DNA from: Yuukianura sp. NJ FZ-2021
Taxonomy: Eukaryota
Assembly: GCA_046563655.1 (NCBI GenBank)
Contig: CM102288.1
Location: forward strand, 5,208,001 to 5,272,000
DNA: 64,000 nt
Reading direction: 5' to 3'
Under the pieces are notes generated by a model. The model had not been told where the DNA came from. It saw only the letters and a list, made by a program, of their open reading frames with translations, and made no database searches. Of the stretch, positions 5-62,700 are shown piece by piece (within the stretch, counting starts at the first letter, position 1; every line of letters starts with the position of its first letter). Both the position numbers and the translations under genes were made by a program.

Positions 5-2469
<2,465 letters not shown>

Positions 2470-2704
2470 AAAAATATCGGATATAGACATCTCACAGCAC
2501 AAATTTACGTTTTGCTAACTTCTTTTTGCAGAGTTAAAAATAGAAATTCTGTCAACATTTACATTTATACGTATGGTCGTGCTAACTTTTGCGTGTAAAT
2601 TACGCTAACTTTAAAAGTTATAACTATTGCTAGGGTAGTTAGAGTTCGTCCAGAAATCCGCCGTTGGTGTCATCGGGTTGTCCATTAAGCGTTCCGTTGA
2701 CCAC

Positions 2705-4998
2705 TCATTGACTATGTCCGGATGACAGAAAGAGCCATGTCCAGTAGACAATGTTGAAAATGACAAAGTTGAAAAAAAAGAACCCAAATGCGAATTGGTT
2801 TATGAGTTTGGCGGTTCGTTCAAAAGTTTGAGTAGCTTTTGTCCTAAACTCATCGATGGACTGCAGGGCTCTTCCGATTGGCTCAGCAGCCGAATTTTTC
2901 CCGCCATTTTGGCCAGTTTGATTTAGCGGCACTTCGCAAACCAATCTTTGCAATTCTTGTTGTCGTTTGCTAATTTTGTAATTTCGGAGCCACACGAAGA
3001 AAGCAAATTCCAGTAAGGTTGCAAACACTATGAAAATGCAGTACACCATCCAAATGTCAATGGCTCTACAAAAAAAAAGCAAAAGAAAAAAAAACTTTCA
3101 CAATTTTGAATTTTGAAAAAATTTTTGTTCAAACATCACAATGCTGGACGTACTTGACATAACTGACAACCGGAGTACTTTCTCTGACGGCGGAAAACAT
3201 TGCTGTCAGAGTCAACAGAGTCGTCATGGATATTCCTGGGAAATTTTGTAAAAAGCTAAATTTTGAAACTCAGTATAGAGATTTTCCCAAAATTTTATCT
3301 TGAACTTTCTTTTCGAAAAATTTGCTTACCTATTCTGGCTTCAATGAGTTCCTCTGGAATGAGAAAACTCAACCATGTGATGAAAACCAAAAATGCGGAA
3401 GGAATGTACGTCTGGAAATTATTTTTTTAGAAAATTTCAACTGAAATACTTCAAAATTTTATGTCATTGAAACCATTTTCTACCTGTAAAATGTGATACG
3501 TCATGCGCCGACGCATTGATAGTTGGATTTGGAGCACGTCAAAAATTGCATCTGCAGTATAAAAATAAAATATGAGCCATTTCTTTTTCAAAATTTAAAA
3601 AAAAAATCCTTTTGTACCATCGAGGTTGATGTCCTTGATTTTTTTCCTCCTTTGAGCAACGTAGCTTAACTTGAGGTCAAAGTTGTCATCAGAGTCCGTG
3701 TCAACCAAGTACGCCCCGGGCGGTGGATTCCAGCGCAAGTTCATTTTCGTTTCGTCATTTTGATCTTTCAAAAAATGCAAAAATTTCCCCATTTTACAAA
3801 AACTCGCAAAAAAAGGTACACAAATTGTAATACTTACAACTGCGAATATCAATAATACAGTGTTGAGTGTCCGCCGGGTAGTATTGGAAGTCCATGTTGC
3901 AATCCGTTTTCACCGAGGCTCTAAAATTTTGCAAATAAAAACTTCAAAATTTCAAAAACAAATTCTTCTCTCGAAAATGTAAAAAAAAATCCTGACCTTG
4001 TAGTGTAGACAATACTGGAAGTTCGTTTGATGACTCGCACTGTAACGGGACTCGATAGAAGTCCAGGTTTCCATACTTTCACAACTCGCTCTTAAGAAAA
4101 TAAACTTTAGGTTAACACTAGGTTAGCAAGATTAAAATTAAGTGAAAACGCAGTTAAAAGTAAGTTAAAACTGGGTTAAAACTACGTTAAAATCGCATTA
4201 CCAATGAATATGTCTGGTTTCCATAACTTTTCGAAATCGTCAAGCGGAAGTGGAACTCCGCCGAAAGTTCGAAAGAGAGTGGAAATATTTTCCCATTTCT
4301 CATCAAAGTAGTTTGGTTGCTCCGGAAGAAAGTCGTAGTCGTTCCAATGCACTACCAAGTCCATCTCAACCGTGATTTTCTAAAATTTCAAAAACAGAAT
4401 TTTGAAAAACAATTTTTTAAAAATTTTCTTCACACTTGATGAATACATACCTGATTTCCTTCGTCAATTTCGCGTATACTTTGAATTTGAATTGCGACAT
4501 CCACATCAACCTTCTCCTCTTCATCTTCATCTTCTTGACCTCCGTCGTCGTTAAAAGCAAAGGTCAAGTTTGCTCTAGCTGTTTCACTTTTTGCTTTTAC
4601 TACATCTGACTCTGGTCGTTGTGACGGTGGCGGTGGGCCCACCCTAGCCAAAGTTGAATTCGGATCTTGGTTTGGTGGGACTGGTAGTGGTGGGCCCATC
4701 GCTGGCCCCACCGCAGCAGGTGAGACAAAATCATCATCATCATCAAGTGACGGTATCGCACTGAACGGTACTCCACCACCACCTTAAATTTTTGTAACAT
4801 GCAACAAAAATTTAAAGTTTGAATTTTTTTTTAAATTTCAATGACGTCACCTTTATTTCCTTTTTTCCTTGAAGGAATTTTTAAATTGCTATAAGATTTT
4901 GGAATTACGAGGCCCTCATCTCCAGTTGCATCTTGAGCCAAAAGTGGAGCAACATTGAGCACCACCAAAAGCAAATAAACAATAGTTACTCCCTCCAT
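2705..4998 (-). CDS. Cys-loop ligand-gated ion channel subunit (GlyR/GluCl/pHCl-like scaffold), multi-exon
   Basis: Signal peptide MEGVTIVYLLLVVLNVAPLLA (ATG at 4998). Motifs IQSIREIDE and LWKPDIFI; Cys-loop CNMDFQYYPADTQHC (C-x13-C, ~3857-3901); TM1 TYIPSAFLVFITWLSF; TM2 RIGISMTTLLTLTAMF; SYVKAIDIW; TM3 FIVFATLLEFAF; TM4 FNFVIFNIVYW. Stop at 2705-2707. Confidence 0.93.
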
Positions 4999-8432: not shown

Positions 8433-11400
8433 ATGTGGAACACGCTGGTGTTGCTTCCATTTTTCATTTCAATTGTTGTTTCCACCGGGGATTTACCGGA
8501 GGTCACTGTTTTGACGGGGACCGTCGGCAGACTTCATGACGGATTCATAAACTCTACAACACAAACAGTATTCTACTACGATCTCAGTACGATATTCAGC
8601 AAGTTCAACACGGATGTAAGTTAGCAATTCTGGAAACAAAAGTTCACCATTCCAATCAATAGAATTCAAAACTCTTTACAAAGTATTTCGCTTTCAAATA
8701 AATTTGCGTGATTTAGGATGCCAACGTGCGCGTGAGTGTTAGCGTGCAACCTTTTGCAGGGGACTGTCCAGTCCTGTTTAGTGTCCGTGAACGACGAGCG
8801 GTCTTATCCTGGGAACTCCCAATTGTAGAACAAGATCAAACTGGAAGGTAAGTCAATTGTTCATGTAGTACTATAAATGGATAAAATATTTCTTGCACTC
8901 CCCTCGAAAGTGGTGGATATATCCGGATTTTTTTGGTTTCTTCCGGATGAAACTCAATTTCGTCCATCGGAAACTGGATTTCATCCGGATTTATCCATTT
9001 ATCCAATGGATATATCCTGGACGAAATGCTAAAAATAAAGCGTATTGCCTACTGCTTTGTATCTCTTTAGTTTCGTTTCCTACTACTCCACTGAGCGGAC
9101 TCTTTGCTCAGAAGTGGGCAAAGGCGATTCGAACCAGGCGATTCAAATTGAAATCTCAACGTGCAGTGTGGATCCAATCAACTTCTTGGTCTCACTGACT
9201 GTCACCAACGACATAGTCATACGGTATGCACGTTAAACGTTAAACTAGCAATGAAAAAAGAAATTTCATTTCAGTGTGTCATTTGAGCTAAGCATTTCTT
9301 GGCAGCATTGACGACCCGCCCAGAAAAGTTGAGGTTTCACCGGTTGCTCCAGTGTACTACCGATACGATCCGCCCGAAACTGGAGACGACTCGGTACTGG
9401 TCAGTATTGACGATGTTTCTGGGGATGAGGATATCTGTGTCATTTTCTCCATCCAGCAACCACAAGTAACTGCAACAAAATGCAATCAGACATTAATTAG
9501 CTACCACAATAAGTGTTTCTTTGGACGAATTTTGGTTTCGTGTTCTGTTTTTCAAAATTCTGCTTTTTGTGCAGACACTAGTATTGTCTGCATAAAAATT
9601 TACAGAATTTTTAAAAATAGTACAGGAATTCACATTTTTACCGTTTTTGTCAAAAATGATTTCTATAAATGTCAACTTATTATACTTCATTCAGTGTCCA
9701 GTGCTGGATCAAGAGCAAAGTGTTCAATTCAGAGGATACTGGCAGAGTATGACCACGAAAGCGTCGATTCTGCTCAGGGTAAGTCAAACAATGTCTAATT
9801 TCGGTTGAAGTAAACCTGGACTCCCCGCCTGTACCCATCCATCCAAATTTTTGCACTGCTCTGCTTGTACCCACCCATTGTACCTATCCTATGAGTACAT
9901 TTGTTTGTTCCCACGAGAATCTAAAGCAATACTTTGGATTCATCCATTTCTTCCACTGGATATCCTGCCGAGGATAAAATGTCGAAAAAGTGGATATCCA
10001 GCAACACTGGGCTTCATGCATCATGCATTCTCCAAAGTCCGAGTTTTACCCGACATTTTGAATTTTAGCGGGATACTCATCCGAATGGGTTCTTCATTGT
10101 ACTCGTTGCCCTTACGAATGGAGAACGATGTTCCGAGATGTCGTCAATCACTGACTCAGCCTACACTCGCTTCAATGGTCTTGAGAAAAACGAAATGCTG
10201 GTGACAATTGAAAGAGTCATTGAGCCCGAGGACTATGTCACTCCAGTACTCGTCCCACTCGCCGTCATCTTCGGTCTCATTCTCCTCATATTCATCGTTT
10301 TTTCAATCTTTCAAAACATGTTACAAAGGTAGCCTCAGTGTATCAAGATAACCAACCAATTGCTGAATTTTTACATAATTTTAAAACAGTTTTGTCGAAT
10401 TCATACAGGATTAGTGATGCGTCAAGAGCAAACGTGTCGTTTATTTCGGATTTTCGAGCCGTGTCTAGATTCCAGTCTTGTCTTTGCTTGGAGGAGTTGA
10501 AGGAGCACAGCGCCGATACACTGCAACGCAAGTCCAACCGATACTTCCTGTCCGTCGTCACCATTGGAATCTTCTACTGCGTCCCTGTCATTCAACTCAT
10601 TTCAAATTATTTGAGAGTGAGATAATAATTGTTAGTGAAGATTTAATTGAATTAGACGCGAAGAATCTCAAATGTATTTGATTTGTAGGTACTCTATCGG
10701 ACTGGTGACTATGACTTGTGCTACTACAACTATCGATGTGCCCGTCCACTGGGCTACATTATGGACTTCAACCACATTTACTCCAACACAGGCTACGTCA
10801 TCTGCGGCATTGCTTTCATCGTCTTCGTCAGCCTCCGGCAGAGGAGCCTCGAGGCCGTTGACTTCCATCCAACGCCGCTAGATGTAAACGTAATCGCAGG
10901 AGATGGAGATGCCACTTTTGACAACACGGGAGTTCTTCGGAAAATACTTCCGAGGATATATGGAAACATTGCAAACGAATACGGTACGCTCCAGAATTAT
11001 GGAATTTACTACGCTCTCGGAGTTGCTATCATTCTGGAAGGCGTCCTTTCCTCAGCATATCACATATGTCCAAATCAATCCAATTTCCAATTTGGTAAGG
11101 CTTAAAATTGAACACAATTTCAACAGAGAAGCAAGATTTAGCAAGAAATATTTCAAAAAGCAAATTTTTATAACTTGCCCTATTTTTTTTTAGATACTTC
11201 TTTCATGTACGTCATTGCAGTTCTCGGAATCGTGAAAGTGTACCAGTTTAGGCATCCAATGTATCTCAGCGCGTGAGTTTAAACCGAACAGAGGCTTTCA
11301 TTTTGTATATATTTTGAACTTGTTTTTAACATTTTAGGAACATCACGTTCATTAGTTTGGCGTTTGTCGCGGCCTCTTCAGTGTTCGGTTTGTTATTTGA

Positions 11401-12263
11401 TAATTTAATTTTCAAAATCTGTTTTTCCGTTTTCTACTTCGTTGGACTTGTGATTCTGCTGATCTACATGTACCACGTAGGATTCACTGTGGATGCGAGT
11501 GAGTGAACTAAATTAGTTAAATCTTAAATTAATTCACAAGTGTCTAATTTGCAAACAATGACTTTGTAGATGGTGTCTTGGTCACAAGCTGGGTGGAGAT
11601 TTGCAAAGGGATTTTGCGAATTCGCACAATTTATGAGCGTCGCCCTTCCAATTCGTCCACTTTCGGTAGAATTCTATTCCCCGTCGTTGCACTCCTCATA
11701 AACATCACAATCATCGTCTGTCTCTGGACGGTCATGGTCAACAACAACTTTGCTACACAACTGCTAGCTATTTTTGTTACAAACTTTTCTGCATACGTTA
11801 TGTACTATGCGACCATGAAGGTACACACCGGAAATATGTCTTTTTTTCATTTTTTGATTTTTTTGAGAAATTTTTGAAACGAAGTGTTTTGTTTTTGTAG
11901 TTGGTGCATAGAGAATACAAATCAATGTTATGGATTCAGTTGCTGATTTACGGTATTCTGTCTCTCGGACTGTGGATTTTGTCGCTGTATTACTTTCAGC
12001 AAGCGCAGAGCTCCTGGGAAAAGTCGCCTGCGCAGTCGCGAGAGCTCAACGACGACTGTATCCTGTTTAGTTTCTATGACAACCATGATCTCTGGCACTT
12101 TACCTCCAGTGCTGCTCTTCTCACGTCATTCATGGTACTTTCAATTTTGAATTCAGTAGCTTTGTTATGTTAAAAATATTTGTCGTTTGCTTGGTTTCAG
12201 CTTCTGCTGACGATGGATGACGATTTGATTACAACGAAGCACGAAAACATCCCAGTTTTTTAA
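8433..12263 (+). CDS. sid-1-like: SID-1 transmembrane family protein (SIDT/SID-1-like; dsRNA- or lipid-transport related), multi-exon
   Basis: Signal peptide MWNTLVLLPFFISIVVS. Conserved motifs [78 protein letters not shown] and FYDNHDLWHF, and C-terminal LLTMDDDL...IPVF-stop (TAA 12261-12263). Confidence 0.96.
8876..9035. mobile_element. Degenerate fragment of the GGATATCC-rich MITE-like repeat, in a SID-1 intron
   Basis: GGATATATCCTGGACGAAATGCTAAAAA (~9008) resembles the reverse complement of the left part of the 18581 element. TTTCATCCGG blocks are shared. Confidence 0.5.
9945..10009. mobile_element. Terminal fragment of the same MITE-like family, in a SID-1 intron
   Basis: AAAAAGTGGATATCCAGCAACACTG (ending at 10009) is a near-exact reverse complement of CAGTGTTGCTGGATGTCCACTTTTT at 18581. 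Confidence 0.6.
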
Positions 12264-14588: not shown

Positions 14589-14660
14589 GCAACCGAATGG
14601 GATTTGAACCCACGTCACTTCATTCCGGGGATATGCTCTCCACCATTCAGCTATCGGCTC
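14589..14660 (-). pseudogene. tRNA-like sequence (tRNA pseudogene or tRNA-derived SINE head)
   Basis: The minus strand reads GAGCCGA-TAGCTGAATGGTGGAGAGC-...-GTGGG TTCAAAT CCCAT-TCGGTTGC. It has an acceptor-like stem, an A-box/D-arm and a B-box/T-arm, but the anticodon arm pairs poorly, so no isotype is assigned. Confidence 0.65.
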
Positions 14661-18756: not shown

Positions 18757-20569
18757 GCGTTCTCATGACCTTGAACAATTTCCTCGAACTTCTTGAGGTT
18801 TCTTTGCGTCTAGTTATGTTTTAACTAACCTTTTAGCTTTCTTGATTGGACAGAAGTTAAAAAGTTCAAACATTGTCATTACCTCTAATTTGGAAACTAA
18901 AGACTTTCCTTGTGGGAGTTCGAAATTTCCTATTTTTTGCCTGAAATGGACGTAATAATTTGAAAGTAGAGTTGTTCCTGTCTGATTACACTGAAGAAAG
19001 TACTTTTCCCTGAATTCCGTTCCAGACCATAGAACAAAAGAGAAAGTCAATTTGGTTCAACAGATGTGTAATGAATCATAACTTTCATTTGAAACTATGG
19101 AAGTTCTCTGTGTTCAAGTGTTACCATTTACTACTCTTCACGAGGGTAGGAAAAACACATTTTGTGGCCAAACCGAGACGGGATAAAGATTTAACACTTT
19201 CTCGGCTCCTTCAGCGTAGCTATGCGTTCTGGACGAAAAGAAGGAAATGTGCTTGTTTTCAGCGTAATATGAACCAAAACGTATTTTGAGTTCTCGTTCA
19301 ACCATTTTCAGTTCTCTAGCACCAGCAGCTACAGTTTGACCAGGAAAACCTCTTTTACTTCTCATGTCGGCTGAAGATGACTTATTTGGAGGTTGGTTTT
19401 AGGTTAGGCATAGCGTTGTTTGGACTCACTTTCTCTCTTTTCTCCTCTAAAGTGGTGCAGAAAACATTTATTTGATGACTTTCACTAATGCTCTCCACGC
19501 GAAGAGGTTCCGTAATATTGACTCTAATTTATACCCATCATCTCCTTCCAGCCCTTTGGACCTCACACAAATGCAGATCCTAACCGAATCCTTAAGTTTC
19601 TTGATCCTGATGCTGGGAAGCATCCTGATGCTGGAAAGTATTCTCATCCTGATGCAGGGAAGTATTCTGGTCTTAAGAGATGCGACGACCACCAAAACCA
19701 AATGTTCAAAGTTAGTCATGTACTTATGCTCACTATGCAACTCAGCCTCCGCTTAATTGTCTCTTGGCCATCACCACTTTGGATAACATACTTTCACTGC
19801 ATGCTCAAAATCCAAAATTACTCCATTTCCCACGTAATTTTAAGAAAGCAAGGACTGTAGCAGGTCATAACCGACAACCCAAAAAGCGATAATGGTAATA
19901 ACAGACAACCCAAACCCGACTAATGTCAATTGCCGAACTGTCAAAGTTTGTATCTTGTATGTAGAAGGCAGTTTTCAAATTGTTTTTAAAAAATTGTGTC
20001 TTAAAAATTAAGTTTTTCAATAAGTGTCGCAATGAAAGCGAAAAAAAGAGAAAGAAAGAAACCCGCCGTCTAACAAGAAACAAACTATAGATATTTTATT
20101 CCTTGAAGTGTAAGATGACAACTCGTTGTTTAAAAAATAATTTGAGTTATAATTAATTTCTAATTTAATTTTTTCAATCAATTTGAAAGGGAATGGATGA
20201 AGGAAACAAAAGAAAACCAAGTGAGAACTTTTCTCTCTCCAAAATTTTTTCTACACAAAAAAGAAAAGAAAGACTTCGAGAAATTAAAAAGGTGCCGAGG
20301 AAATATTAAAAGAAAGTTTTGGTGAAAAAGAGAAACGGCGATATGTTTCCAGGGTTCGAAGGCTGTAACTTACGTCCTGTAACTTACGTAACTTACGTAC
20401 GTAAGTTAGGTAATTTTCAGAGGGGTTGTAATTTTCGAAATTTTCATTCTTTTGAATTTTACGCGGGAGGGAGACAGCGTAGGAGTCAGGGGAGCGGGAG
20501 AAGTCCAAAATAACAAAAGAGCAGTGATTTACTGTAGGTTAGGTAGATGATTATTTTTTCGGTTTTTTC

Positions 20570-21202
20570 TCGAGCACACTGCTCGAGAAATACCAGGATA
20601 TTCTTCGAGCAGTCTGCTCGAGAAATACCAGGATAATTCTCGAGCAGTCTGCTCGAGAAATACCAGGATATTCTTCGAACAGTCTGCTCGAGAAATACCA
20701 GGATATTCTTCGAGCAGTCTGCTCGAGAAATACCAGGATAATTCTCGAGCAGTCTGCTCGAGAAATACCAGGATATTCTTCGAGCAGTCTGCTCGAGAAA
20801 TACCAGGATATTCTTCGAGCAGTCTGCTCGAGAAATACCAGGATAATTCTCGAGCAGTCTGCTCGAGAAATACCAGGATAATTCTCGAGCAGTCTGCTCG
20901 AGAAATACCAGGATAATTCTCGAGCAGTCTGCTCGAGAAATACCAGGATAATTCTCGAGCAGTCTGCTCGAGAAATACCAGGATATTCTTCGAGCAGTCT
21001 GCTCGAGAAATACCAGGATAATTCTCGAGCAGTCTGCTCGAGAAATACCAGGATATTCTTCGAGCAGTCTGCTCGAGAAATACCAGGATAATTCTCGAGC
21101 AGTCTGCTCGAGAAATACTAGGATATTCTTCGAGCAGTCTGCTCGAGAAATACCATGATAATTCTCGAGCAGTCTGCTCGAGAAATACCAGGATATTCTT
21201 CG
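20570..21202. repeat. Tandem array, 18 x 35-bp palindromic unit, inside the hAT element
   Basis: Unit CTCGAGAAATACCAGGATA(ATTC/TTCT)TCGAGCAGTCTG. AAATAC recurs every 35 bp from 20588 to 21183. The A-type junction contains the 23-bp dyad TTCTCGAGCAG-T-CTGCTCGAGAA. Confidence 0.97.
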
Positions 21203-21241
21203 TAGCTTTTCTTTCTGTTGTTTTAACTGGCTGTTATTGAA

Positions 21242-21442
21242 ATGCCACGAGTCAGAGATCCGATTTGGAACGATTTTGACCTTGAACCAAACCCGGGCAG
21301 TAAGATCCCCTGGGCAAATTGTAAGTTGTGTGATTGGAGACATGCAGGAATCCCGGACAGGATGAAATCACACTTACAGAAACATCAAAACGTTGGCAAA
21401 GACTCCGAATCAAATGGGCCAAGTACGTCATGTTCACTTTAA
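21242..21442 (+). CDS. BED zinc-finger ORF (N-terminus of a hAT transposase, truncated; 66 aa)
   Basis: MPRVRDPIWNDF...ANCKLC...RMKSHLQKH fits the BED pattern W-x2-F...C-x2-C...H-x3-H. It starts at ATG and lies between the hAT TIRs. Confidence 0.8.
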   Translation: MPRVRDPIWNDFDLEPNPGSKIPWANCKLCDWRHAGIPDRMKSHLQKHQNVGKDSESNGPSTSCSL

Positions 21443-22854
21443 TATTTTCAGAGTCAAATTCCTGCGAGCCTGAGGAAGTGTTAGATGTGATGGCAGTTGA
21501 ATAATTAGCGTTAAGTTTCTCGAAATATTTGTGTTAATTGCGTTAAGTGTGTTAGTTTAGTCTTAAAAAAAATATAGTAGTAAATATTGTCTACCGCAGT
21601 ATATTTCTATCAGGCCTTGGTTTGATTTTTAACGCAATTAGATAGTAGATATTAATAGTTTATGGTTTGGGGATGGGAGTGGGGTGCAGGTTTTTTGTTT
21701 GAAAATTGAAAATTACATGTTTTGAAAATTACAATCTTACGTAGATTACGTAAGTTACGATAATTACGTAAGTTACGTAGTTTTCGGCAAAAATACCGTA
21801 ATTTTCGAACCCTGTATGTTTCTTTCTTGCTTTTTTCTTCCTTTTTACAAAAGTTTGCAAAAGGTGAAGTTCTATGTGACAGAAAGCGTAAGACCAGCAC
21901 ATTTCTATACTGGTAGTTAAGCTAAGGTTGTGTGAGTTAGGTTTGGCTGGGCTAACCCAACCACTTCCCAGAAACTGGCTGCTAAACTGATTTGTATAAG
22001 GGAAAGTCCTGAATATGCAAACAAAAGGACAATGGAGCCAAATAGGAGCCAGAACAAAAGAAAGTAGTGAAACTAGTGAAAGCAGAGAAAATACTTTTTC
22101 TAAACACAACAAACACTCCTATTTACTCTTCCTTTAAAAAAAACAAAGGCAATCTTCCTAACAACTGTGCTTGGAGGAAGCACAAAACCACAATGAAGGA
22201 ACAAGAGTAAGGAAAAAAACAAATTAGAATTAAATTCCTACTCTGCGTTGAACTGCTATGCTGTTGAAAATGTCTCGAAAAAAGCAAGAAAGAAACCCAG
22301 AAAATTTTTTGCGTTTCGCAAACTCTGGATGTGTTCATGTTGTAATCGAAATAACATTAATAGTCTAACCATCCAAATATGTTAGCATACCAAATTCTAA
22401 TCAGACAAAATTTGGCAAATAGTTAACCAGGTACTGAATTACAGTACTAATATACGGAAAAAAAATTGGCTGCAAATAGACATCGTAAATCCGGTGGTGT
22501 CTCATGAAATCCTGATTTCGCATTTTTCCGGACTTTTAGCAACAAAATTCGGATTTTCGGTAACATGGTAACTCCCATAAGAAAATTTTCGATATCTTCA
22601 CAAGCAAGAAAACTTATGTTGCATACACCAGTATCCAAAAATCTTAATTGTGCGTAAGTTTGGGCTGAGCAGGAAACGTGGAACAGGGAAAAATATCTTC
22701 CTGTGTTCATTTTTGAAAAAAATATTTTTACCACTTCCTGGAGTTCATGAGGAAGTCTTGTCAATTTTTTACCTTCAAATGTTAAAGTAACAACAATATT
22801 TAGTTGAATTAGTTGATATTGAAGTCTCAGCACTTGGTGCAAGAAAAGTAAAAC

Positions 22855-35875: not shown

Positions 35876-38800
35876 ATGGTCGTTCCGAACTTCCTGGAGT
35901 GGTCCTCATATCCAGAGCAATGGTGGTGGTGGTGTAATTTATTTGGGAAAACAAGTAGTGGTGCCAGTGGTCAAGACGCTCAGTTGGACATAACCTTATT
36001 TCTTACTGGAAAGTTGCCCAAGACCATTTGGACGATCTGGAGTAGTGAGGGAAGGGCAAGGTCAAAGTTCAGCCTAAGGAAATTGAAAGCATGGGCTCTT
36101 TCATTGACTGTACTGTTCAACCTGGTGGGCATTGCGTGGAGTAGCGACGGACCGACTACGAATCATGCCACTAGCCAAACTGTGACAACGAAGTACGGAT
36201 CTCTCCGCGGACTGCGACTTCAATTCACTTCCAGTTCGAACAAACATTTGGGTAAGCTGTAGTCATAGAAACATGCTCGGTAAAGATATCGAAACATTAG
36301 TAAAACATCCAATATTTTGGAAAACATGCAGTAAACATATTGGTACCACTATTTTATGAAAATTATGAAATATTTATCCCAACAGCGTTTTTGTGTTTAG
36401 TACATCCAATCCGCTGTGTACAACACAAATTCTCTCACAAAACTTTGAATGTTAAGGTTCACATCTACCTTTTCCATGAACCGAGTCCTTCCTTAAGGTA
36501 CATTAATTTAGTCTAACAAAACTTAACGTTTGAATTGAATTGTGGGTGATTTGTGGAGCTGAAGCTAGAAAAGATTGAATGAAATTCAGAAAAACCAGTT
36601 GAATTCAATATGTTATGAGCACAGAAGAACAAAAAAAAAACAAGAGAAATTGCGCGCTTTCCCTTTTCCTTTGGTTGAATTTAGAATATCAAGAGCAAGT
36701 TCAATTGACTAAAGCCTTGCACATCACGTTCGCTTGACAGGACTCGGCAGCAAAAGAAAGCAGCCCTTCAACTTCCTTTTTTCCCGCTTTTTTGAAAGTC
36801 TCTTCTTGTGAAGATGATGACATTCAAAGAAACATGATACTTTCCCCTCATCTCATCAGTTACAAGTGGTTTAAAAGGGTCCGCCTGTCTCGAAGTGGTT
36901 TCAATATGACTTTTTCAAAAAAATAGCATACAAGGGAGGGGGCCCTTGAGGGATCGGAGGAGATGGAGACTTGACTGCTAGAGGAAACTAGACGCCTTAA
37001 AGACCTTTTGCAACAGCTTTGAGCGCCCACGGAAGACTTCCTCTGAAAGAGACGCCGGAAATTCACTTTTTTCCCGCTCTTTTTTCTGTGGGGTTTTCAT
37101 TTTTATTTTTGAAATTGAAGAAAGGCTGAAGAGAAAAGCACAAAGAGAAAAGTGAAGATGGAAACACTTCAGGAGCCTTCTCAAAGCGAAGGAAGGGGAG
37201 GACCCTTCAACTAGTATATGAGGCCCTTTTATTCAGGAATGACTGATGAGCTATTCCATACAAAAAGTGGCACTATTCATTTCTTTTCCTTTTTTGTGTG
37301 TACAACTTGTGAGTATATGGGAATTTTTTTTTTTCAAATTTTGTAGTTTTAGGACATTTAAATTAGTATATGGCAGGCAGGGGGTCTTTTTAGATAGATT
37401 ACTTCCCTGTGGGTTGTTCTCACGAGTCGTGCGATTCGCAATTAATCGGAATTTTCATAAAACATATTTTAAATCTCCGAAATCAAGCAAATTTCGATTT
37501 TTTATCTGTCTGTCTGTCCGTCAGTTCAATCCAATTTCCGGACAGAATTTCAGCTTACTTTTCACAAAAGACTACCTATATAGTTTTCAATTCAAATGCC
37601 GTTTTTAAATTTTGTTTTACAAAAACTGAAAAGTAAACTCCCCACATAAATTCTTGTGGTTTTGTTTCAGCTGTTTCTAGTTTTGACTTGAGTGAAAGAA
37701 ATTCGGGAATTCTGAAAATCAACTTTCGCTACTTTGTTAATCACGTTATTTTGAAATTGGGTTTTGGCGACTTGAAATAGTTACTTTTGTTGGATTTCTT
37801 TTTTCTAGATGCAGTATCTGCCTACCTCGGAATTCCTTATGCATCTCCACCAATCAATGCATATCGATTCATGCCCCCCGTCGCCCCCCTCCCGTGGGGC
37901 CAAGGGGTTCGGCTTGCTGTGTCATATCCACCACCATGCCCCCAACGCTTTCCAGACATTTCCAATAGAACGAGAGCACTGGAAACGATGACGCTTCAGC
38001 GATTCCTACTTCTTCAACGGCTTATTCCTCATTTGGCCAATCAGAGTGAAGACTGCCTCTACCTCAACTTCTTCGTTCCAACTGTTCCAACAGGTGAATA
38101 TTCTAAAACAAGAATTTACATTTTCGCTTTTTTAACTTTTTTAAAGTTTGTTTTAATCAAAAACGAAGGTGCGTCTATTTGTTTCTCATTAGGAGGATTA
38201 GAAGTAAAGCTGCAGGAACATTTTTGAGCTCGAAGATTAGAATCTTAGCCTTCCAGAAAATTTACTCAGTTAAACATTTAGCCTTCCGTTGAAAGATTTT
38301 ATCTCGCTGGAAGGAAACTGCGGAGGCGGTTCCGGAACAGAACAAAGTCAAAATTGTTTCTTTTTCGAAACAACCTTACAGCGTACTTTTTTTCAAAACA
38401 GGTTTTATTTGAAGCTGTGATGACTCTTGAGTAGCTTAAAGTAGAGTTTAATTTTCAAAAACTAAAATAAGCCTATAACATTCTTTTTATTTTAGAAAAG
38501 AGTGGGAATTTCATTTGAAGTGTTGGGAACAAAAGGAAGTTGGAAGTATGGCTTTGACGCAACAAGAGAAAGTATATCGCTTTCTGTGAGCAAACAAAGG
38601 CAGAATGGAGGAAGCTTAGAGGGAAAATTGGGGGCAACCGGATAAGATCCGGGCATTTTGAAAAGAATCTGCACTCCGTACGCGGCTTTCTCCGTCGGAT
38701 TTCCTCCCAATTCCCTTTAGATTAACGACATTTTATTGAATTCTATTGACTTCCTGTGTCCTGCCCAACTCACTTGTCCTTTGTCCAGCTTAAGTCTTTG

Positions 38801-44800: not shown

Positions 44801-47800
44801 TTAGGTTAAAAAAGCTCCATTTTTTTTTTAATTTTAAGGATTCCTCAGATCTCCTGCTGTTTTGTAAAGAAAAAGCGTACATTCTCACTATCACATTTTT
44901 TAATGTAAAACTTTGGAACTGGGGAATTAGTAAAACTCCACTCCAGCTCCAGTGTCACTGTCTTCCAGTAGAATAGCAGCTTCTTCGCTTTTTCCAAACT
45001 TTTGTAATCTCAGAAGAATAGAACTGGAGAAAGAAAAAGTAAAGAAAAAATCAAAAAAGTAGAAAAGTGGTGTACTAGTTGAAAAAGTTTGAAGAGCTTC
45101 TTCTCAAGTCTCTTTTTTCCTATTTCTGCAAGAACTCATGCTGGTAAGGATTCAAATTGGACCGAAAAGAGAAAAGTATCTAGGTGTCAAGTTTCACACT
45201 TTGGGAAAATCAACACTTTTTCGTACGTTAGCAAAGTTGAGATCATTACCTTAACGGTAGGGATTTGGAGAAGAAGAGAAAGTTGAAACCGTACGTTGGA
45301 ATCATTAGAGTTATTATGTTAACTCTATGACGAGAAAACAAAATTTGGCGCGAAATTTGAACCTTTTTGAATTTGGGATTCGTGAAACAATCGTAGATTT
45401 TTTGAAACTTCGCTAACGCTTCTCTTCCTTTTTGCGTAATAAAGGCATGGAGCGGGGATATAAAAGTAGCGAAAGAATGGACGTTTGATTCGAAAGTAAA
45501 GTCTGAAGGTCGAGTTAACAAATTTTTTGAAGATATAGGATGTACCAGTTTTCTATAATATTAATTAGGTTAGATTTGTCGACTTAACTCTTTAACTCTA
45601 TGTTAGTTGAGTTTGATAAACTTTGACCTTTGACCCTACAGGAGTTGCTGCCTAAACGCTAAAAAATTATTGTACACTGATCACTTGATGGGCAATAGTG
45701 ATAACAGATGAATTCAGAACCGCATGAGAACCAATAAAGATAAAGCGGACCGTTAGGCAGACAGTCGGACAGACAGACAATGTCGAAGAATCAACCACAT
45801 TTTTGTATATAAAAACAATAATACGTTTTTTTCATAATTCCGTTTTTTATTGTTTCAGACTTATTTCAACGCGCAATTCTCATAAGTGGATCAGTCCTGA
45901 GCCCTTGGGCCCTTCAACGACGTCCCGAAGAAATAGCACTCCAAGTTTCAAATCATTTGGGGTGTAAGGGGGTTTTGCCGCTCAATCATCCAGAAAGTGA
46001 CCTTGCTCCGTGTCTCCGTCGTAAACCGCTGGCTGACCTCCTCAGTTTTGTGCCTGAGTCTCCTCGTTTTCTTTCACCATTTGCTCCCTACGTTGATAAT
46101 AATCTACTACGCTCTCCACGTCTTATGATGGAGGGATCCGGTAGTGGTCACCCTCTCCCAGGCCTCGTCAGTGGCACTCCAGGGATATTCAATGACCAGT
46201 TTAAGCGATCTCAACTCATGCTCATTTTCACTTCGAGTGAAGGTGTCCATGAACTGAATGATCGAGAAGTGCGCCATGGATTTGAAGCTGATCATCGAGA
46301 TCGGCTCCTCCGGACACTCGTGCGAAATGTCTTCAACTATCATCAGCAAGAGATTTTTTCGATTGTTAGAAACGAGTATACTGACTGGGAGAGACCGATT
46401 TTGCATCCAATTCCGTTGCGTGATGCGACTGTGGAGGCTCTCGGAGACTGTTTAGCTATTGCTCCAATTCTGCAGTTGGCCATGACCCACTCCAGAATTC
46501 TGGATGCCCGAAGTACGTACCTTCTACACTTTGCGCATGTCTCCAAAGATGTGGAAGGAACGCCCTACGAGGTGAGATAATTTTTTCAGTTAGGGTAGTC
46601 AGTGTGAAATTAAATTGCATTTACATATATGTGCCATAAGGATTTTTGAGTTTTACACGACAATCTAAACTTCACAACAATTCAAAATTTGTTTCACCTT
46701 GCAACCGAATGCAACTGATGTAAGCCATGGTTTACATGACATTATGTAATTTGCCAACACGTTTAAGTTTATTGACGGTTTCAAAAAATTTAACTCAAAG
46801 TAAAAAAATTTTATTGAAAGTTGAGCCGAAAAGAATTGAGAAATTGGAGTGACAGGGTCATTGACCATTTTTTGAAATTGTGGCCATTACAAGGGCCCTT
46901 GAGCACAAGGGACTTTAGGATGTAGGGGCCCCTTAAGGTGCATCTAGGATTTTTATGACTCTTTCTGTAATCCAAGATTTGTGCTGAGTGAGCTTGGAGA
47001 AAGGCTCGACGGAACAAAGTCAATAAATAAGAAAAGAGGCACTTTGTATTATAATGAGAGTACTTTCCTTCATGTAGATCCATTCGGACCAGCTTCAATG
47101 GCTTCCGTCTCACCAGAAACGACAAGGAACATTTCAAATTTGAAATAGATTTTTATTTAAACTCTCAAAATGATGCTACAAATTTAGATTCTGCAACAGT
47201 GTTAGGTTAGGTTATGGCTACTTTTATGTAAAATCTGCTACAAATGTTCGATTGAGCTACAACCTATTTTTTTTCCAGTCGAAATTTTTCCGTTTCAACC
47301 AAAATTTTTATGCTCCAACCTACATTTCCAACTGGAACCTGCTAAATTTTAGGTGTAGCGTGGATGTTAGGCGCGAACATTAGGTTCAGTAGTGAGTGTG
47401 GGTGGGGTGAATGAGGTGAGAATTATAATGGGGAGATGTGGGGGTAGAGTGATTTAATGTGAACTTTGAAAGAGAAAGTGACTTTTGTTCTTGTTGGAAC
47501 TGGGAGAAAGTGGAGATCAATTAGGCCATGTGTCTTCTTCACTTCCCTAGGCACAAGGTACAACTTTAGGTTAGGTTTACGTAAGGTTAGGTTAGCCTAA
47601 CTTCCTACTTCACTTTCTTGTTCTACTTGTCTTAAAAAAGAACAGAACAGACGTAGAATTGGAACAGACTGGAGCCTAACATTTTATCAACAGTGTCAGT
47701 TTCCTCCAACATCTTCCAGATTTTACTCATTTTTTCCAAACTTCTAAGCCCTTCAGAGGTCAATTTACTAAATTAAAAAGGGAATCAAATCGAGGTCACA

Positions 47801-59710: not shown

Positions 59711-62700
59711 ATGGACAGCCAGTCTGCATTGGGAATCGATGCTTTTGAAAAATTTGCAAGTGCAAAAAGTTGCGAATCCATTCTTGACAAGTTTGCAAAT
59801 TTGTGCGAAATTCTCGAACTTGAACCAACAAATTGTCCACAGTTTTTTGGAAAGTTGAAGGTAAGTCAGCTTTTTTTAAATAAAAATTTAATATTTCAAA
59901 GAGAGATTCTTTTTTTTATTAATTAACATATTTTATTATTAATTTATATTTTTATGTTAATATAATTTTTGATCGTGGTTTATTGTTCGACAGGAAACGT
60001 TGACCTCGACTGACCTCAGAGAACTTTTTGCCAAGTTCGATCGGCGGCTGAACTCCAAAGCTTACAGTAATGGCCGAGCATGCGCAGACTCCAATGTGCT
60101 TGTCATTGGAGCCGGACCGTGCGGCTTACGCTTCGCAATTGAAGCACAATTGTTGGGAGCACGCGTCGTTGTTATTGAAAAACGCTCTGGATTTACCCGT
60201 AACAATGTCCTTCATCTTTGGCCGTTTGTTTTGACTGACCTGCGTGACCTTGGGGTCAAACGGTTTTGTCCAAAATTCTGTCCGGGTTCAATCGATCACG
60301 TGAGTATTGCCCAACTGCAGTGCATTCTACTCAAGATTGCTCTCACCCTGGGCGTAGAAGTTTTCACCGAAATTGAGTTCCTAAGTCTGATAGAACCAGA
60401 GGTCACGGAGGTCAATGACCCCGAAGAGGTCAAGGTTAAACGAGGCGGTTGGAGAGCTGCCACCACCGCTGCGGCAGACCATCCTCTAAACTTTTTTGAA
60501 TTCGACGTTGTGATTGGTGCAGACGGGAGGCAAAATGTTTTGCCCGGATTCAGAAGAAAAGAGCTAAGAGCAAAACTGGCCATAGCAATAACAGCCAACT
60601 TTGTCAACAGAAGAAGTGCAGCGGAGGTCAAAGTTCAAGAGATCAGTGGAGTCAGTTCCATTTTTCGCCAAGCTCTGTTTCAAAATTTGGCGGAAGAAAC
60701 TGGAATTGATCTTGAGAATATCGTTTACTACAAGGATGACACCCACTATTTTGTCATGACGGCTAAGAAACAGAGTCTTTTGCTTAAAGGAGTGCTTAGA
60801 GAGAACTTTGCTGATACGGATGACCTCTTAGCACCGGAGAACATTGATTTTGAAGCTCTAGAAGCTTATACATTAGAAGCTGTTCGGTATGTCACGGAAG
60901 ATGGACTGCCCAATCTTGATCTGGCAATGAATCACCAAGGAAAACCGGATTTGGCTATTTTCGATTTCACGAAAATGTATGCTGCTGAAAATTCGTGTCG
61001 CGTTATGGAGCGAAACGGGGGCCGACTTTTACTCGGACTTGTCGGAGACAGTTTGTTGGAGGTTGGTATAAAAAACTTCAAAAATATGATTTTTTTTTTG
61101 TTAAATTTTTTGGAAACTTTTTTGTAGCGTTTTTCTAAGTTATTTCAAACGTGTGAATTTGAAATTAGTTTTATTTCGCTGTTCTTTGTGCTAATTCTGC
61201 CGGGGATTTTGATTTCAGCCGTTTTGGCCAACGGGTTCCGGTTGTGCCCGCGGATTTTTGAGCGCTCTAGATGCAGCATGGATGATTCGAAGTTGGGCGC
61301 GTGGTGAAGACGTTCTGGACGTTTTGGCTGAAAGGGAGACGATTTACCGCCTTTTGGCTCAAACGACACACGACAATTTGAATAAAGACTACAAATCATA
61401 CACAGTGGATCCAACGACACGCTATCCCAACTTGGTCACAGGAACTGTCCAGCCATGTCAAGTTTTGTTTTTGTACGACGCCAACGCCTCGGGCGATGCA
61501 AAACTTACGTCTCAACGTAGTCTTCCAACAGCTCCCAAACCTAAAGGTCAACAGAGGTCATTGAAATTGGGAACTTCAGAAGTCAAGCGGTCGCCTAGTC
61601 CTCGAGGCCACTCTCAACATCTTAACGGATCCAGTTCACCCAAACCTATTCAGAGAGGTAACGAAAAAAAATCAAACATTTTCATAAACTTTTCTGTTTT
61701 TTCAATTTGAATAAATTTTTCCTGCCAACACAATTTTTTTTTTGAATTTGAATGTTGCCTGTATTCGTAGCCTCCAGACAAGAGAAGCAGTGGTTGGACA
61801 TTGACTTTTTGGTGGACTGGCTGCGCATGACCCTTGACCCCTACGCTATCCAAGTGTCTGGTATCCATGACATTTTTGTGCGGGGTGATGTGCTGTGTGG
61901 TCTCATCCATGCATTTCGCCCTGATCTCATTCCACAATATCCGTTTCCACCAGAAATTGAAGATGGAATTGACGTCTCGGATCTCGCGGCATTTCGAAAT
62001 CAAATTGCATTTGATTTTCTAAATGACGAATACGACTTGCCTTATGTAAGAAAACTCGTACCCAATTTTTCCAAGTCATTTTAAACAAAGTAAACTTTTA
62101 ACTTTAAACAAACAAACAATTTTATTAAACTTCCACTTCTTTTCTACTCAAAATTATTTGTTAACAGTTCTTCAAACTTCAGAAATTGTTATTCTTGTGT
62201 CTTTCGTTTAGATCGTGAGTGGATACGATTCGGTGCAGTACACGATGACGCATTTGCAAGACCTGGTTCAATACTTATTTCAAGTCTACTCAATATTTAC
62301 CAACTCCCACCAGAGGAATTTGGTAATTGTGTCAAAATATTAACAATTTAGTTAGTTACAAAAATTCTCAAATTTTTTAAAAATATCTGATATTTGTCAT
62401 TCACTTTTTATATAGTCATTTGAGAGCCAAAAGCCCGCGAGAAAACTTGTACGATCTGCAACCTTCAGCACAAATGATTCTCACGGACATTTTGGTAGAA
62501 CAAAATTTTGATTATACCCTACAATTAACTCTGTTCGTTATGATTTTTTAAAAATTGCTTTTCAAAATGAAATTCAGTTTTTAAAAAATACATGAGAGAG
62601 TCTCAATGATAGTGAATAAATGCTTTGTTGTTCTCCAGGATCAACTCGAACTGGTCACTGCATTCGAAATTTACAACAAAAGTTCCAGGGTCTAAGCTTT

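What the first reader, a model, noticed from the sequence alone, without database searches (positions are those of the whole stretch)
20350..21814. Young hAT element carrying an 18 x 35-bp palindromic array in front of a lone BED zinc finger
Seen: perfect TIRs, a perfect 8-bp TSD, subterminal TTACGTAA repeats, a homogeneous ~630-bp array of dyads (TTCTCGAGCAG-T-CTGCTCGAGAA) and, ~40 bp after it, an ATG-initiated 66-aa BED-finger ORF with no catalytic domain. Established: hAT transposases make 8-bp TSDs and use an N-terminal BED finger to bind subterminal repeats. Internally deleted P-element derivatives (KP type) can encode DNA-binding repressors. Inference: this may be a mobile unit pairing a small DNA-binding protein with a multi-operator or hairpin array. 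It could act as a transposase decoy or repressor, a chromatin-binding platform, or a source of hairpin small RNAs, rather than as simple debris.
Basis: partly seen in the sequence, partly recalled or inferred. Interest (0 to 1): 0.72.

Follow-up and report, generated by a model that had tools for sequence, protein, structure and literature searches.

The report
Recently moved broken hAT transposon
This is a small, defective cut-and-paste (hAT) jumping gene that inserted recently in an animal genome, keeping only the front tenth of its enzyme gene and carrying an internal block of 18 short palindromic repeats; it is a fairly ordinary kind of element.

Summary
Window 20350-21814 is a 1465-bp element. 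It has perfect 11-bp inverted ends (CAGGGTTCGAA), a perfect 8-bp target duplication (TATGTTTC) and TTACGT-rich subterminal repeats. Inside are an 18.1 x 35-bp array and, 42 bp after it, a 66-aa ORF.

Public reads show an unoccupied allele of this site in the sample that best holds the window, and in a second organism. The insertion is therefore recent and polymorphic.

The ORF is a BED-type finger. Pfam misses it. It matches proteins that carry Pfam zf-BED, and the five best fold matches are ZBED domains. Its residues 1-46 align with the N-termini of 622-631-aa DUF659-type hAT transposases, and it stops in the linker, so about a tenth of the enzyme remains.

A metagenome relative with the same inverted ends (L002) has a frameshifted finger and no array. 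Another relative (L001) has the finger as exon 1 of a transposase.

The array is probably carried by the family and not private to this copy. Its unit resembles the element's right-end terminal sequence (post hoc test).

Verdict: a Ds-like deletion derivative carrying a central minisatellite. The decoy, repressor and hairpin-RNA ideas remain untested. The scan's earlier notes hold no look-alike DNA.

The parts
20342..20349 (.). Left copy of the 8-bp target-site duplication, TATGTTTC
   Evidence: The empty-site contigs keep a single copy.
20350..20360 (+). Left terminal inverted repeat, CAGGGTTCGAA (11 bp, perfect)
   Evidence: The same ends occur in relative L002.
20363..20412 (.). 5' subterminal repeats: CTGTAACTTACGT x2, then the palindromic AACTTACGTACGTAAGTT
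   Evidence: period 14, 1.9 copies, 100%. One search places ACTTACGT at 20368, 20382, 20391 and 20399.
20413..20566 (.). 5' unique non-coding region
   Evidence: Family contigs cover 20439-20591 with 1 other letter and a 14-nt gap (records 3 and 18).
20567..21199 (.). Array of 18.1 x 35 bp. Core dyad TCGAGCAG-T-CTGCTCGA, spacer ATACCAGGATA(A/T). Two interspersed unit variants.
   Evidence: All 25 listed of the 67 inverted-repeat pairs lie within 20555-21202, arms up to 309 nt, 76-79% complementary. As RNA it would fold at -383 kcal/mol, z -27.
21242..21442 (+). 66-aa ORF: the N-terminal BED-type finger of a hAT transposase. Zinc ligands C27, C30, H44, H48. Truncated in the linker.
21443..21736 (.). 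3' non-coding region. The abundant family variant differs most here, and other deletion forms join here (joint 21306>21584; loose end before 21584).
21737..21779 (.). 3' subterminal TTACGTAA-type repeats
   Evidence: period 9, 4.8 copies. One search places TTACGT at 21737, 21746, 21748, 21764, 21766 and 21773.
21804..21814 (-). Right terminal inverted repeat, CAGGGTTCGAA
21815..21822 (.). Right copy of the target-site duplication, TATGTTTC

Best explanation
This is a non-autonomous, internally deleted member of a hAT transposon family on the DUF659-bearing branch, in an animal genome. Earlier notes call the genome springtail-like.

What it keeps: both ends needed for transposition (the 11-bp inverted ends plus TTACGT-rich subterminal repeats), the 5' non-coding region with a family-borne 35-bp minisatellite, and the first about 60 codons of the transposase gene (the BED finger). 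The rest of the gene, about 560 codons in full-length relatives, is gone.

How it moves: it cannot move itself. A full-length family member elsewhere in the genome supplies the transposase. That enzyme recognises the ends, cuts the element out, and pastes it in with an 8-bp duplication.

This copy inserted recently. One haplotype of the sample carries it and the other haplotype still has the intact target.

The array is most simply a tandem amplification of a right-end-like terminal sequence. Slippage or unequal exchange between palindromic units would keep it homogeneous. The 66-aa ORF is the remnant of exon 1 running to the first stop after the breakpoint.

Shown here: structure, homology, polymorphism, multi-copy status.
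Inferred: trans-mobilisation, origin of the array, and that the ORF and array have no function of their own.
For: 1. hAT hallmarks are present.
2. Empty-site contigs join 20349 to the downstream flank. In X1 and X2, 17 letters lie between the two sides of the joint. I read them against as identical to window 21823-21839. They have 1 contig each, depth 124 and 31.7. X5 (another organism) shows the same kind of joint at depth 5.9.
3. Element-body contigs have depths of 2638-4715 in X1, against 91-135 for single-haplotype flank contigs. In X5 the figures are 59-233 against about 6. This fits tens of copies, though the tool warns that depth is not a copy number.
4. ORF residues 1-46 align to residues 1-46 of P0025 (622 aa), P0028 (627 aa) and P0026 (631 aa). 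These were found independently through L001's transposase body. P0026 and P0028 carry PF04937 (DUF659), P0025 has no precomputed Pfam domain, and PF05699 occurs in other hits of the same search. The window ORF stops in the linker before their conserved 'II.TS...IA.FFYATNTPF' block.
5. In L001 the finger (49% identical; the first 20 nt from the ATG are the same) is exon 1, followed by a GT..AG intron and a hAT transposase body.
6. L002 is an 892-bp element with the same ends. It has its own palindromic subterminal repeats, a frameshifted finger and no array.
7. Other deletion forms of the family exist in the reads (joint 21306>21584; loose ends at 21567 and 21584).
8. Non-autonomous DNA transposons with central or TIR-derived tandem repeats are a documented class (PMC9659126, passages read; Tetris PMC4079207, listing and abstract start).
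Against: - The autonomous partner was not found. No genome is held and nothing related lies in the window.
- The ORF is intact from ATG to stop in the abundant family contigs of both organisms. It shows 1 and 2 substitutions over 201 nt and no listed indel (42 substitution rows and 24 indel rows were not shown). The 3' non-coding part differs by about 4% plus indels. This could mean constraint on the ORF. However, the 5' non-coding region is equally conserved (1 other letter in about 150-200 nt), so the contrast is not specific to the ORF.
- The array is family-wide, highly homogeneous and sits 42 bp before the ATG.
- The array unit resembles the right-end terminal sequence, a plausible protein-binding site.
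- Neither expression nor binding could be examined.
Confidence: 0.8

Rival explanations
1. KP-like repressor. The 66-aa BED peptide is made and competes with the full transposase for its binding sites at the element ends (the TTACGT-rich subterminal repeats). This would damp transposition of the family.
For: - The ORF runs intact from ATG to stop and folds confidently as a finger (pLDDT about 90 over residues 11-40).
- It is intact in the abundant contigs of two organisms.
- In Hermes the isolated BED domain binds subterminal repeats next to the TIR, two domains binding cooperatively on a quasi-palindrome (PMC10368747, passages read).
- The subterminal repeats here are palindromic (AACTTACGTACGTAAGTT).
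- KP-type repressors are established for P elements (PMC4938643, listing and abstract start only).
Against: - There is no evidence of transcription or translation.
- The peptide has no region beyond the finger for dimerisation.
- Relative L002 lets its finger decay.
- The ORF end coincides with the point where relatives read on, as expected of an accidental truncation.
- Too few substitutions are available to test for selection.
Confidence: 0.08
2. Binding array or decoy. The 18 units are pseudo-ends that bind the transposase or its BED finger. They would either soak it up, or recruit it and favour this derivative's own mobilisation.
For: - The unit (spacer plus outer arm) matches the about 21 bp just inside the right tip. 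Against the window's own right end the score is 19, reached by 0.3% of about 2000 random window 30-mers.
- Against L002's right end 18 of 21 columns match, score 25, reached by none of about 2000.
- An unbiased scan put the best local match at that terminus in both elements.
- In Hermes the BED site lies at positions 11-27 of the left end.
- The array appears to be carried by the family.
Against: - The likeness test was made after seeing the alignment, and 8 comparisons were run.
- In the first, unbiased scan the scores were not above shuffles: 55 of 200 and 46 of 200 shuffles reached them.
- The unit has no likeness to the left end (fractions 0.10-0.77) and none to the TTACGT subterminal repeats.
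- The tip letters differ (GCAG against CCCTG).
- L002 transposed, or at least persists, without any array.
- Binding is untested.
Confidence: 0.07
3. Promoter or enhancer monomers. The array belongs to the 5' control region of the parent element's transposase gene, as repeated transcription-factor sites. It is simply inherited by the deletion derivative together with exon 1.
For: - Position: the array ends 42 bp before the ATG, inside the 5' non-coding region.
- The left junction is shared by the abundant family variant.
- TE 5' UTR-borne tandem repeats are listed among known cases (En/Spm-like Atenspm 5' UTR, table in PMC9659126).
Against: - No full-length element was seen, so it is unknown whether the parent has the array.
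- L001 has no tandem array in the 268 bp before its ATG.
- No promoter test for animals is available here.
Confidence: 0.12
4. Hairpin-RNA source. Read-through or own transcription of the array gives a long imperfect hairpin that is processed into small RNAs against the family.
For: As RNA the 687-nt stretch folds at -383 kcal/mol against -195 +/- 7 for shuffles (z -27). Arms of about 300 nt are 76-79% complementary.
Against: - Such folding follows mechanically from any tandem array of palindromic units.
- Perfect paired stretches are only 8-11 bp, short for Dicer products.
- Small RNAs from the array would target only the array, not the transposase.
Confidence: 0.03

Closest known systems
Ds-type internally deleted derivatives of Ac (hAT superfamily)
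   Same: - TIR-bounded with an 8-bp target duplication.
- An 11-bp TIR beginning CAGGG. Ac's own TIR is recalled, not tested here.
- Subterminal repeats.
- Retains the 5' part of the transposase gene and loses the catalytic part.
- Depends on an autonomous partner.
- A series of different deletion forms exists.
   Different: - It is an animal element of the DUF659-bearing branch.
- It carries a 633-bp palindromic minisatellite.
- Its partner is not identified.
Non-autonomous DNA transposons with central or TIR-derived tandem repeats (DINE-1 central tandem repeats, oyster CgHINE Helentrons, Xenopus miDNA4 MITE, Drosophila virilis Tetris)
   Same: - A homogeneous tandem array rides inside a TIR-bounded non-autonomous element and spreads with it.
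- The unit is possibly derived from the element's own terminal sequence, as in Tetris and Xmix (PMC9659126, passages and table; PMC4079207, listing).
   Different: - Those cases are Helitron/Helentron, Tc1-mariner or foldback elements. I found no hAT example in the passages read.
- The unit here is short (35 bp) and itself a dyad.
- Whether free-standing satellite arrays of it exist could not be checked.
Hermes transposase BED domain and its subterminal repeats
   Same: - An N-terminal BED finger.
- Short repeats clustered in the terminal about 50-100 bp, partly in palindromic pairs next to the TIR. In Hermes these bind two BED domains cooperatively (PMC10368747).
- The window's subterminal palindrome AACTTACGTACGTAAGTT even contains AAGT on both strands, the Hermes BED core motif.
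   Different: - The finger here is only distantly related.
- Its target is unknown.
- This is a lone finger without the rest of the enzyme.
KP element of the Drosophila P family
   Same: An internal deletion leaves an ORF for the N-terminal DNA-binding domain only.
   Different: - A different superfamily (THAP finger, P element).
- KP's protein is about 200 aa with a dimerisation region (recalled). This ORF is 66 aa with the finger alone.
- No expression or repression data exist here.

Membership tests
hAT superfamily (as a non-autonomous member) | 8-bp target-site duplication | tested here: met
   TATGTTTC on both sides, 8 of 8. The empty allele holds one copy.
hAT superfamily (as a non-autonomous member) | Short terminal inverted repeats | tested here: met
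   11 of 11 bp, CAGGGTTCGAA. Shared with L002.
hAT superfamily (as a non-autonomous member) | Coding remnant homologous to a hAT transposase (BED + RNase-H-like core + hAT C-terminal dimerisation domain in full-length relatives) | tested here: met
   ORF residues 1-46 align to residues 1-46 of 622-631-aa proteins (P0025, P0028, P0026); P0026 and P0028 carry PF04937. PF05699 occurs in other hits of the same search. The phmmer E-values refer to a 72-sequence set (31.4, 25.9 and 24.0 bits).
hAT superfamily (as a non-autonomous member) | Own catalytic domain | tested here: not met
   Nothing coding lies after residue 66. This is expected for a non-autonomous member.
hAT superfamily (as a non-autonomous member) | Mobilised by an autonomous partner with matching ends | not testable with these tools
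No genome is held.
zf-BED (Pfam PF02892) | Match to the Pfam model at the gathering score | tested here: not met
   No family at E<=10. L001's exon 1 also gives none.
zf-BED (Pfam PF02892) | C-x2-C ... H-x3-5-H/C zinc ligands preceded by conserved aromatic residues | tested here: met
   W9, F12, C27, C30 and H44 are invariant or nearly so in 11 sequences. H48 aligns with H or C in the relatives.
zf-BED (Pfam PF02892) | Sequence homology to proteins that do pass the Pfam model | tested here: met
   - P0006: E 3.1e-6 among 1.84 billion, matched at residues 1-49, where Pfam zf-BED scores 1.4e-8.
- P0009: E 4.4e-5, with 6 zf-BED domains plus a hAT dimerisation domain.
zf-BED (Pfam PF02892) | BED fold | tested here: inconclusive
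   - Model pLDDT is 78.5.
- The five best Foldseek PDB matches are ZBED2, ZBED3 (three times) and ZBED1, but at E 0.075-0.25. None reaches 0.001.
- The Atlas nearest clusters carry zf-BED on 22-48% of members, score 0.95-0.96.
KP-type repressor-encoding deletion derivative | Internal deletion leaves an open frame for the DNA-binding domain | tested here: met
KP-type repressor-encoding deletion derivative | The truncated protein is expressed and represses transposition | not testable with these tools
   No RNA run was listed.
TE-borne central tandem repeats (satDNA seeds) | Tandem array inside a TIR-bounded non-autonomous element | tested here: met
TE-borne central tandem repeats (satDNA seeds) | Array carried by many copies of the family | tested here: inconclusive
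   - The left-junction contig 20439-20591 has depth 3865 in X1, like the body contigs (2638-4715). In X5 it has depth 59 against 216-233.
- Bins at the two ends of the array reach 82,000-166,000 in X1.
- These are contig depths, which the tool says are not copy numbers.
TE-borne central tandem repeats (satDNA seeds) | Free-standing satellite arrays of the same unit | not testable with these tools
   No genome is held. The unit gave 0 exact matches in genome contigs and viral contigs.

The most novel reading that the evidence does not exclude
The element is a self-contained mobile 'finger plus operator' unit. The 66-aa BED peptide is expressed and binds the 18 right-end-like dyads, and the true ends, of its own family. 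The derivative would then either titrate the autonomous transposase (a hAT counterpart of KP with a built-in sponge) or hoard it to out-compete its parent.
Probability: 0.07. Interest if true: 0.65.

Novelty: new member of a known kind. Interest (0 to 1): 0.3.

Why it matters
- It shows that a hAT family is active now, or was very recently, in this animal lineage. One insertion is caught as present on one haplotype and absent on the other.
- It gives a clean case of a short palindromic minisatellite being spread by a DNA transposon, one known route to new satellite DNA.
- If the finger and the right-end-like array did interact, it would be a compact natural system for studying how BED fingers read transposon ends and how defective copies tame or exploit their parents. 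Nothing here shows that.

Tried and rejected
- Whole-genome search: no genome is held. Copies, the partner element and dN/dS could not be examined.
- Word-indexed protein searches of the ORF found nothing: 'longer' and 'near'.
- Earlier-notes look-ups by sequence all returned no look-alike stretch: 5' end, ORF DNA, array, ORF protein.
- RNA: no RNA holder was listed among the 6 runs. Nothing can be said on expression or small RNAs.
- Exact array unit: 0 matches in genome contigs and 0 in viral contigs.
- Finger alignment A1: no pattern match in viral contigs.
- Array middle bins (20710-21033) show low depth. The short repeat contigs fit many places (299 of 444 laid in X1), so this is a placement effect and no finding.
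- The 285-aa minus-strand ORF across the array and the 121-aa plus-strand one gave a scatter of unrelated Pfam names. Each had 0 stretches passing on its own. I rejected them as repeat artefacts: the 35-bp unit has no stop in any minus-strand frame.
- A 29-nt GT...AG interval (21423-21451) behind the finger could be a fused donor and acceptor. It is too short to be an intron, and the frame behind it matches nothing. I left it as an idea.
- Unit against the rest of the element, L001 and L002 in an unbiased local-alignment scan: scores were not above shuffles, with 46 to 158 of 200 shuffles reaching them. Only the later, targeted test on terminal 30-mers stood out.
- L002's flanking 8-mers (GTCCATTG and GTTGAAAT) are not a duplication. 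Its insertion history is unclear.
- Rfam found no RNA family in the element.
Full report
**What is there**

Window 20350-21814 is a 1465-bp unit.
- It begins with CAGGGTTCGAA and ends with the exact reverse complement. These are the only two matches to that 11-mer in the window at up to one mismatch. The bare count is not unusual: 25 of 100 shuffles give two or more.
- What is unusual is the setting. The two copies are inverted, 1.4 kb apart, and flanked by the identical 8-mer TATGTTTC at 20342-20349 and 21815-21822.
- Inside each end lies a cluster of TTACGT-type repeats. ACTTACGT (either strand) occurs 7 times in 64 kb, 6 of them within the two terminal 100 bp. TTACGTAA occurs 4 times, 3 of them in the element. 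Tandem Repeats Finder reports short arrays at 20363-20389 and 21737-21779.

**The array**

- It spans 20567-21199: period 35, 18.1 copies, 94% matches.
- Nine of 18 units carry the perfect dyad TTCTCGAGCAG-T-CTGCTCGAGAA.
- Eight carry TCTTCGA(G/A)CAG on the left, which shortens the perfect arms to 8 bp in seven of them. The eighth (20672) also has a G>A mismatch in its left arm.
- The first unit has a different centre.
- The two variants are interspersed, with runs of alternating units. This is what unequal exchange in a minisatellite gives.
- Because the unit is a palindrome, the whole array is self-complementary. Arms reach 309 nt at 76-79% complementarity.
- As RNA it would fold far below shuffles: -383 kcal/mol against -195, z -27. 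This follows mechanically from the repeat and is no evidence of an RNA function.
- ORFs across the array on either strand give only scattered Pfam names with no stretch passing on its own. They are artefacts of a unit without stop codons.

**The ORF**

The ORF runs 21242-21442 (+), 66 aa, starting 42 bp after the array.
- Pfam finds nothing at E<=10, and two word-indexed searches found nothing.
- A full HMMER pass over 1.84 billion representatives found 13 proteins at E<=0.001. Most are 62-131-aa products on short contigs that begin with the same MPRxKDPIW.
- Two of the 13 are informative: P0006 (E 3.1e-6), which Pfam calls zf-BED at 1.4e-8 on the matched residues, and P0009 (E 4.4e-5), which has six zf-BED domains and a hAT dimerisation domain.
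- In an 11-sequence alignment M1, P2, D6, W9, A25, C27, K28, C30, G36 and H44 are invariant. With H48 this gives a C-x2-C...H-x3-H site preceded by W..F, the BED pattern.
- An AlphaFold model on that alignment has pLDDT 78.5, about 90 over residues 11-40.
- Its five best Foldseek matches in the PDB are the BED domains of ZBED2, ZBED3 (three entries) and ZBED1. Their E-values are only 0.075-0.25, and none reaches 0.001.
- The ESM Atlas places the ORF next to clusters carrying zf-BED on 22-48% of members, score 0.95-0.96.
- I accept 'BED-type finger' with the proviso that the curated model does not reach it.

**Whose finger it is**

A scan of metagenome contigs with the alignment returned two loci.

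L001 (49% identical):
- It starts with the same 20 nucleotides from the ATG.
- It reads through the finger, has a GT...AG intron, and continues into a hAT transposase body. That body is itself damaged by a frameshift and a stop. Pfam gives it only weak DUF659 hits.
- That body found 57 longer proteins, most with DUF659 (PF04937) and many with the hAT dimerisation domain (PF05699). They come from beetles, butterflies, frogs and a sea cucumber, among unnamed sources.
- Among those independently found proteins, the window ORF's residues 1-46 align with residues 1-46 of P0025 (622 aa, 31.4 bits), P0028 (627 aa) and P0026 (631 aa) (E-values there refer to a 72-sequence set).
- In the alignment the window ORF stops in the low-complexity linker, a few residues after a shared P-S-T-S. 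The relatives go on to 'II.TS...IA.FFYATNTPF'.
- The ORF is therefore about the first tenth of a DUF659-branch hAT transposase. Nothing recognisable follows it.

L002 (39% identical):
- It is an 892-bp element with the same ends: CAGGGTTCGAG and CAGGGTTCGAA.
- It has its own palindromic subterminal repeats, GATATATATC.
- Its finger is broken by a frameshift and it has no internal array.
- A related small element thus exists without the array and lets the finger decay.

**Age and copy number**

No genome is held, so I used public runs. Six runs from three studies hold part of the stretch, and none is on record as RNA. All four runs laid are contigs.

Empty site:
- In X1 and X2 (one sample, possibly the source of the window), one contig each joins 20349 to the downstream flank. 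In my reading, the 17 letters between are identical to window 21823-21839.
- The net loss of 1475 bp equals the element (1465) plus one duplication copy (8) plus a 2-letter difference.
- This is the empty site with a single TATGTTTC and no footprint. It has depth 124 in X1, where the flank bins sum to 171-321 and flank variants split about half and half (for example 20189: 128 of 262).
- X5, another organism from another study, shows the same empty site (depth 5.9).
- The insertion is therefore polymorphic, and in the sample that best holds the window it looks heterozygous.

Multi-copy status:
- Element-body contigs have depths of 2638-4715 in X1 against 91-135 for single-haplotype flank contigs. 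In X5 the figures are 59-233 against about 6.
- Loose ends at 20349/20350 and at 21815 show other flanks.
- The family is multi-copy in both organisms. The tool warns that contig depth is not a copy number, so 'tens of copies' is only an order of magnitude.

Array in the family:
- A contig across the left array junction (20439-20591) has body-like depth in X1 (3865) and lower depth in X5 (59).
- Bins at the two ends of the array reach 82,000-166,000 in X1.
- This fits an array carried by most copies. It is not proof.

Other forms and ORF state:
- Other deletion forms exist: joint 21306>21584 in X2, and loose ends before 21567 and 21584 in X1.
- The abundant variant differs from this copy by 1 substitution in the 201-nt ORF (2 in X5; both are amino-acid changes in the tail) and by 1 letter plus a 14-nt gap in the 5' region.
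- It differs by about 4% plus several indels in 21443-21805.
- Because the 5' non-coding part is as conserved as the ORF, this is not evidence of selection on the ORF. The counts are too small for dN/dS, and 42 substitution rows and 24 indel rows were not shown.

**Origin of the array**

- An unbiased local alignment of two units against the rest of the element and against all of L002 put the best match at the 3' terminus in both. The scores were not above shuffles: 55 of 200 and 46 of 200 reached them.
- A targeted test, made after seeing this, compared the unit with the terminal 30-mers against about 2000 random 30-mers of the window.

| Terminal 30-mer | Score | Share of random 30-mers reaching it |
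|---|---|---|
| Window right end | 19 | 0.3% |
| L002 right end | 25 (18 of 21 columns) | none |
| Left ends | 10-14 | 10-77% |

- Eight comparisons were run.
- I take this as a moderately supported lead that the unit is an amplified right-end-like sequence.
- Tandem repeats derived from TIRs or lying centrally in non-autonomous DNA transposons are documented. Examples are Tetris, Xmix/Xstir, DINE-1, CgHINE and miDNA4 (PMC9659126, passages and table read; PMC4079207, listing and abstract start).

**How it most likely works**

The element is a Ds-like passenger.
- A full-length family member supplies a transposase. By analogy with Hermes, its BED finger reads short, partly palindromic repeats next to the TIR. 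In Hermes two BED domains bind a quasi-palindrome at left-end positions 11-27 (PMC10368747, passages read).
- The enzyme cuts at the CAGGG tips and inserts the element with an 8-bp duplication.
- The subterminal palindromes differ between this element (ACTTACGTAAGT type) and L002 (GATATATATC), while the tips are the same. This fits fingers that diverged together with their subterminal sites. That is inference.
- The array and the 66-aa ORF are, on present evidence, cargo and remnant.

**Rivals**

- KP-like competitor peptide: 0.08.
- Pseudo-end binding array, as sponge or recruiter: 0.07.
- Inherited promoter or enhancer monomers: 0.12.
- Hairpin-RNA source: 0.03.

None could be tested. No RNA run was listed, the tools offer no protein-DNA test, and the parent element is unseen.

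**Comparison and novelty**

- It passes the hAT tests that a non-autonomous copy can pass: 8-bp duplication, short TIRs, subterminal repeats and a transposase-derived remnant.
- It fails only the Pfam threshold for zf-BED.
- It is a new family member of two known kinds at once: a deletion derivative, and a transposon carrying tandem repeats.
- The combination of a lone finger ORF 42 bp behind an array of end-like dyads is neat, but each part has an ordinary explanation.
It is a candidate partner, and I could not check it.
- Earlier notes call the genome springtail-like. Here I can only say it is an animal genome. SID-1, carboxylesterase, P450, Mical and thymidylate-kinase exons lie in the window. 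The relative L001 ends in arthropod-type (TTAGG)n repeats.

**Verdict**

The 'young hAT' reading is confirmed and strengthened by the empty allele. The functional-module reading is unsupported but not excluded. Interest 0.3.

Noticed in passing
window 19900-20349 and 21823-22300: The sample holding the window has two quite different haplotypes around the insertion. One flank contig has 31 other letters and 12 gaps over 359 bp. Another has 7 other letters and 8 gaps over 220 bp, beside identical contigs of similar depth.
   Followed up: partly
window 20777-20916 compared with 21790-21809 and L002 1024-1044: The array unit resembles the about 21 bp just inside the right tip of this TIR family, more so in L002 (18 of 21 columns) than in the window's own end. 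It has no likeness to the left ends.
   Followed up: partly
window 21423-21451: Directly behind the finger there is a GTACGT...TTTTCAG interval of only 29 nt. It looks like a splice donor fused to an acceptor, perhaps the scar of a deletion between two introns. The frame behind it (SNSCEPEEVLDVMAVE, then a stop) matches nothing.
   Followed up: no
L001 1538-1782: The metagenome relative's damaged transposase gene runs into eight TTAGG-type (arthropod telomere-like) repeats. Two other short tandem-repeat families follow (TGTGACATGTCACAAAA-type and AGTTGCAA-type).
   Followed up: no
L002 159-1050: An 892-bp non-autonomous element with the same CAGGGTTCGA ends. It has GATATATATC palindromic subterminal repeats, a frameshifted finger, and flanking 8-mers that do not match each other.
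   Followed up: partly
X5 joint 21067>20349: In the second organism one contig (depth 22) runs from an array half-dyad (...TCGAGCAG) straight into a base and the element's 5' end. This is possibly a copy inserted into another copy's array, or another arrangement of array and end.
   Followed up: no
window 10224-11877 (+): Exons of a SID-1-type dsRNA channel gene (Pfam SID-1_RNA_chan, best E 7e-36).
   Followed up: no
window 1460-2050, 37781-38227, 45822-46580 (+): Several carboxylesterase-family exons, suggesting two or three neighbouring esterase genes. A P450 (57677-58762) and a Mical-like monooxygenase (59973-61127) lie further on.
   Followed up: no
window 14589-14660 (-): Rfam calls a tRNA just above threshold (31.4 bits against 29), but ARAGORN finds no tRNA in the window. 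It may be a tRNA-derived repeat or a pseudogene.
   Followed up: no
window 19604-19668: Short 18- and 24-bp tandem repeats inside overlapping open frames about 700 bp upstream of the insertion. No Pfam family.
   Followed up: no
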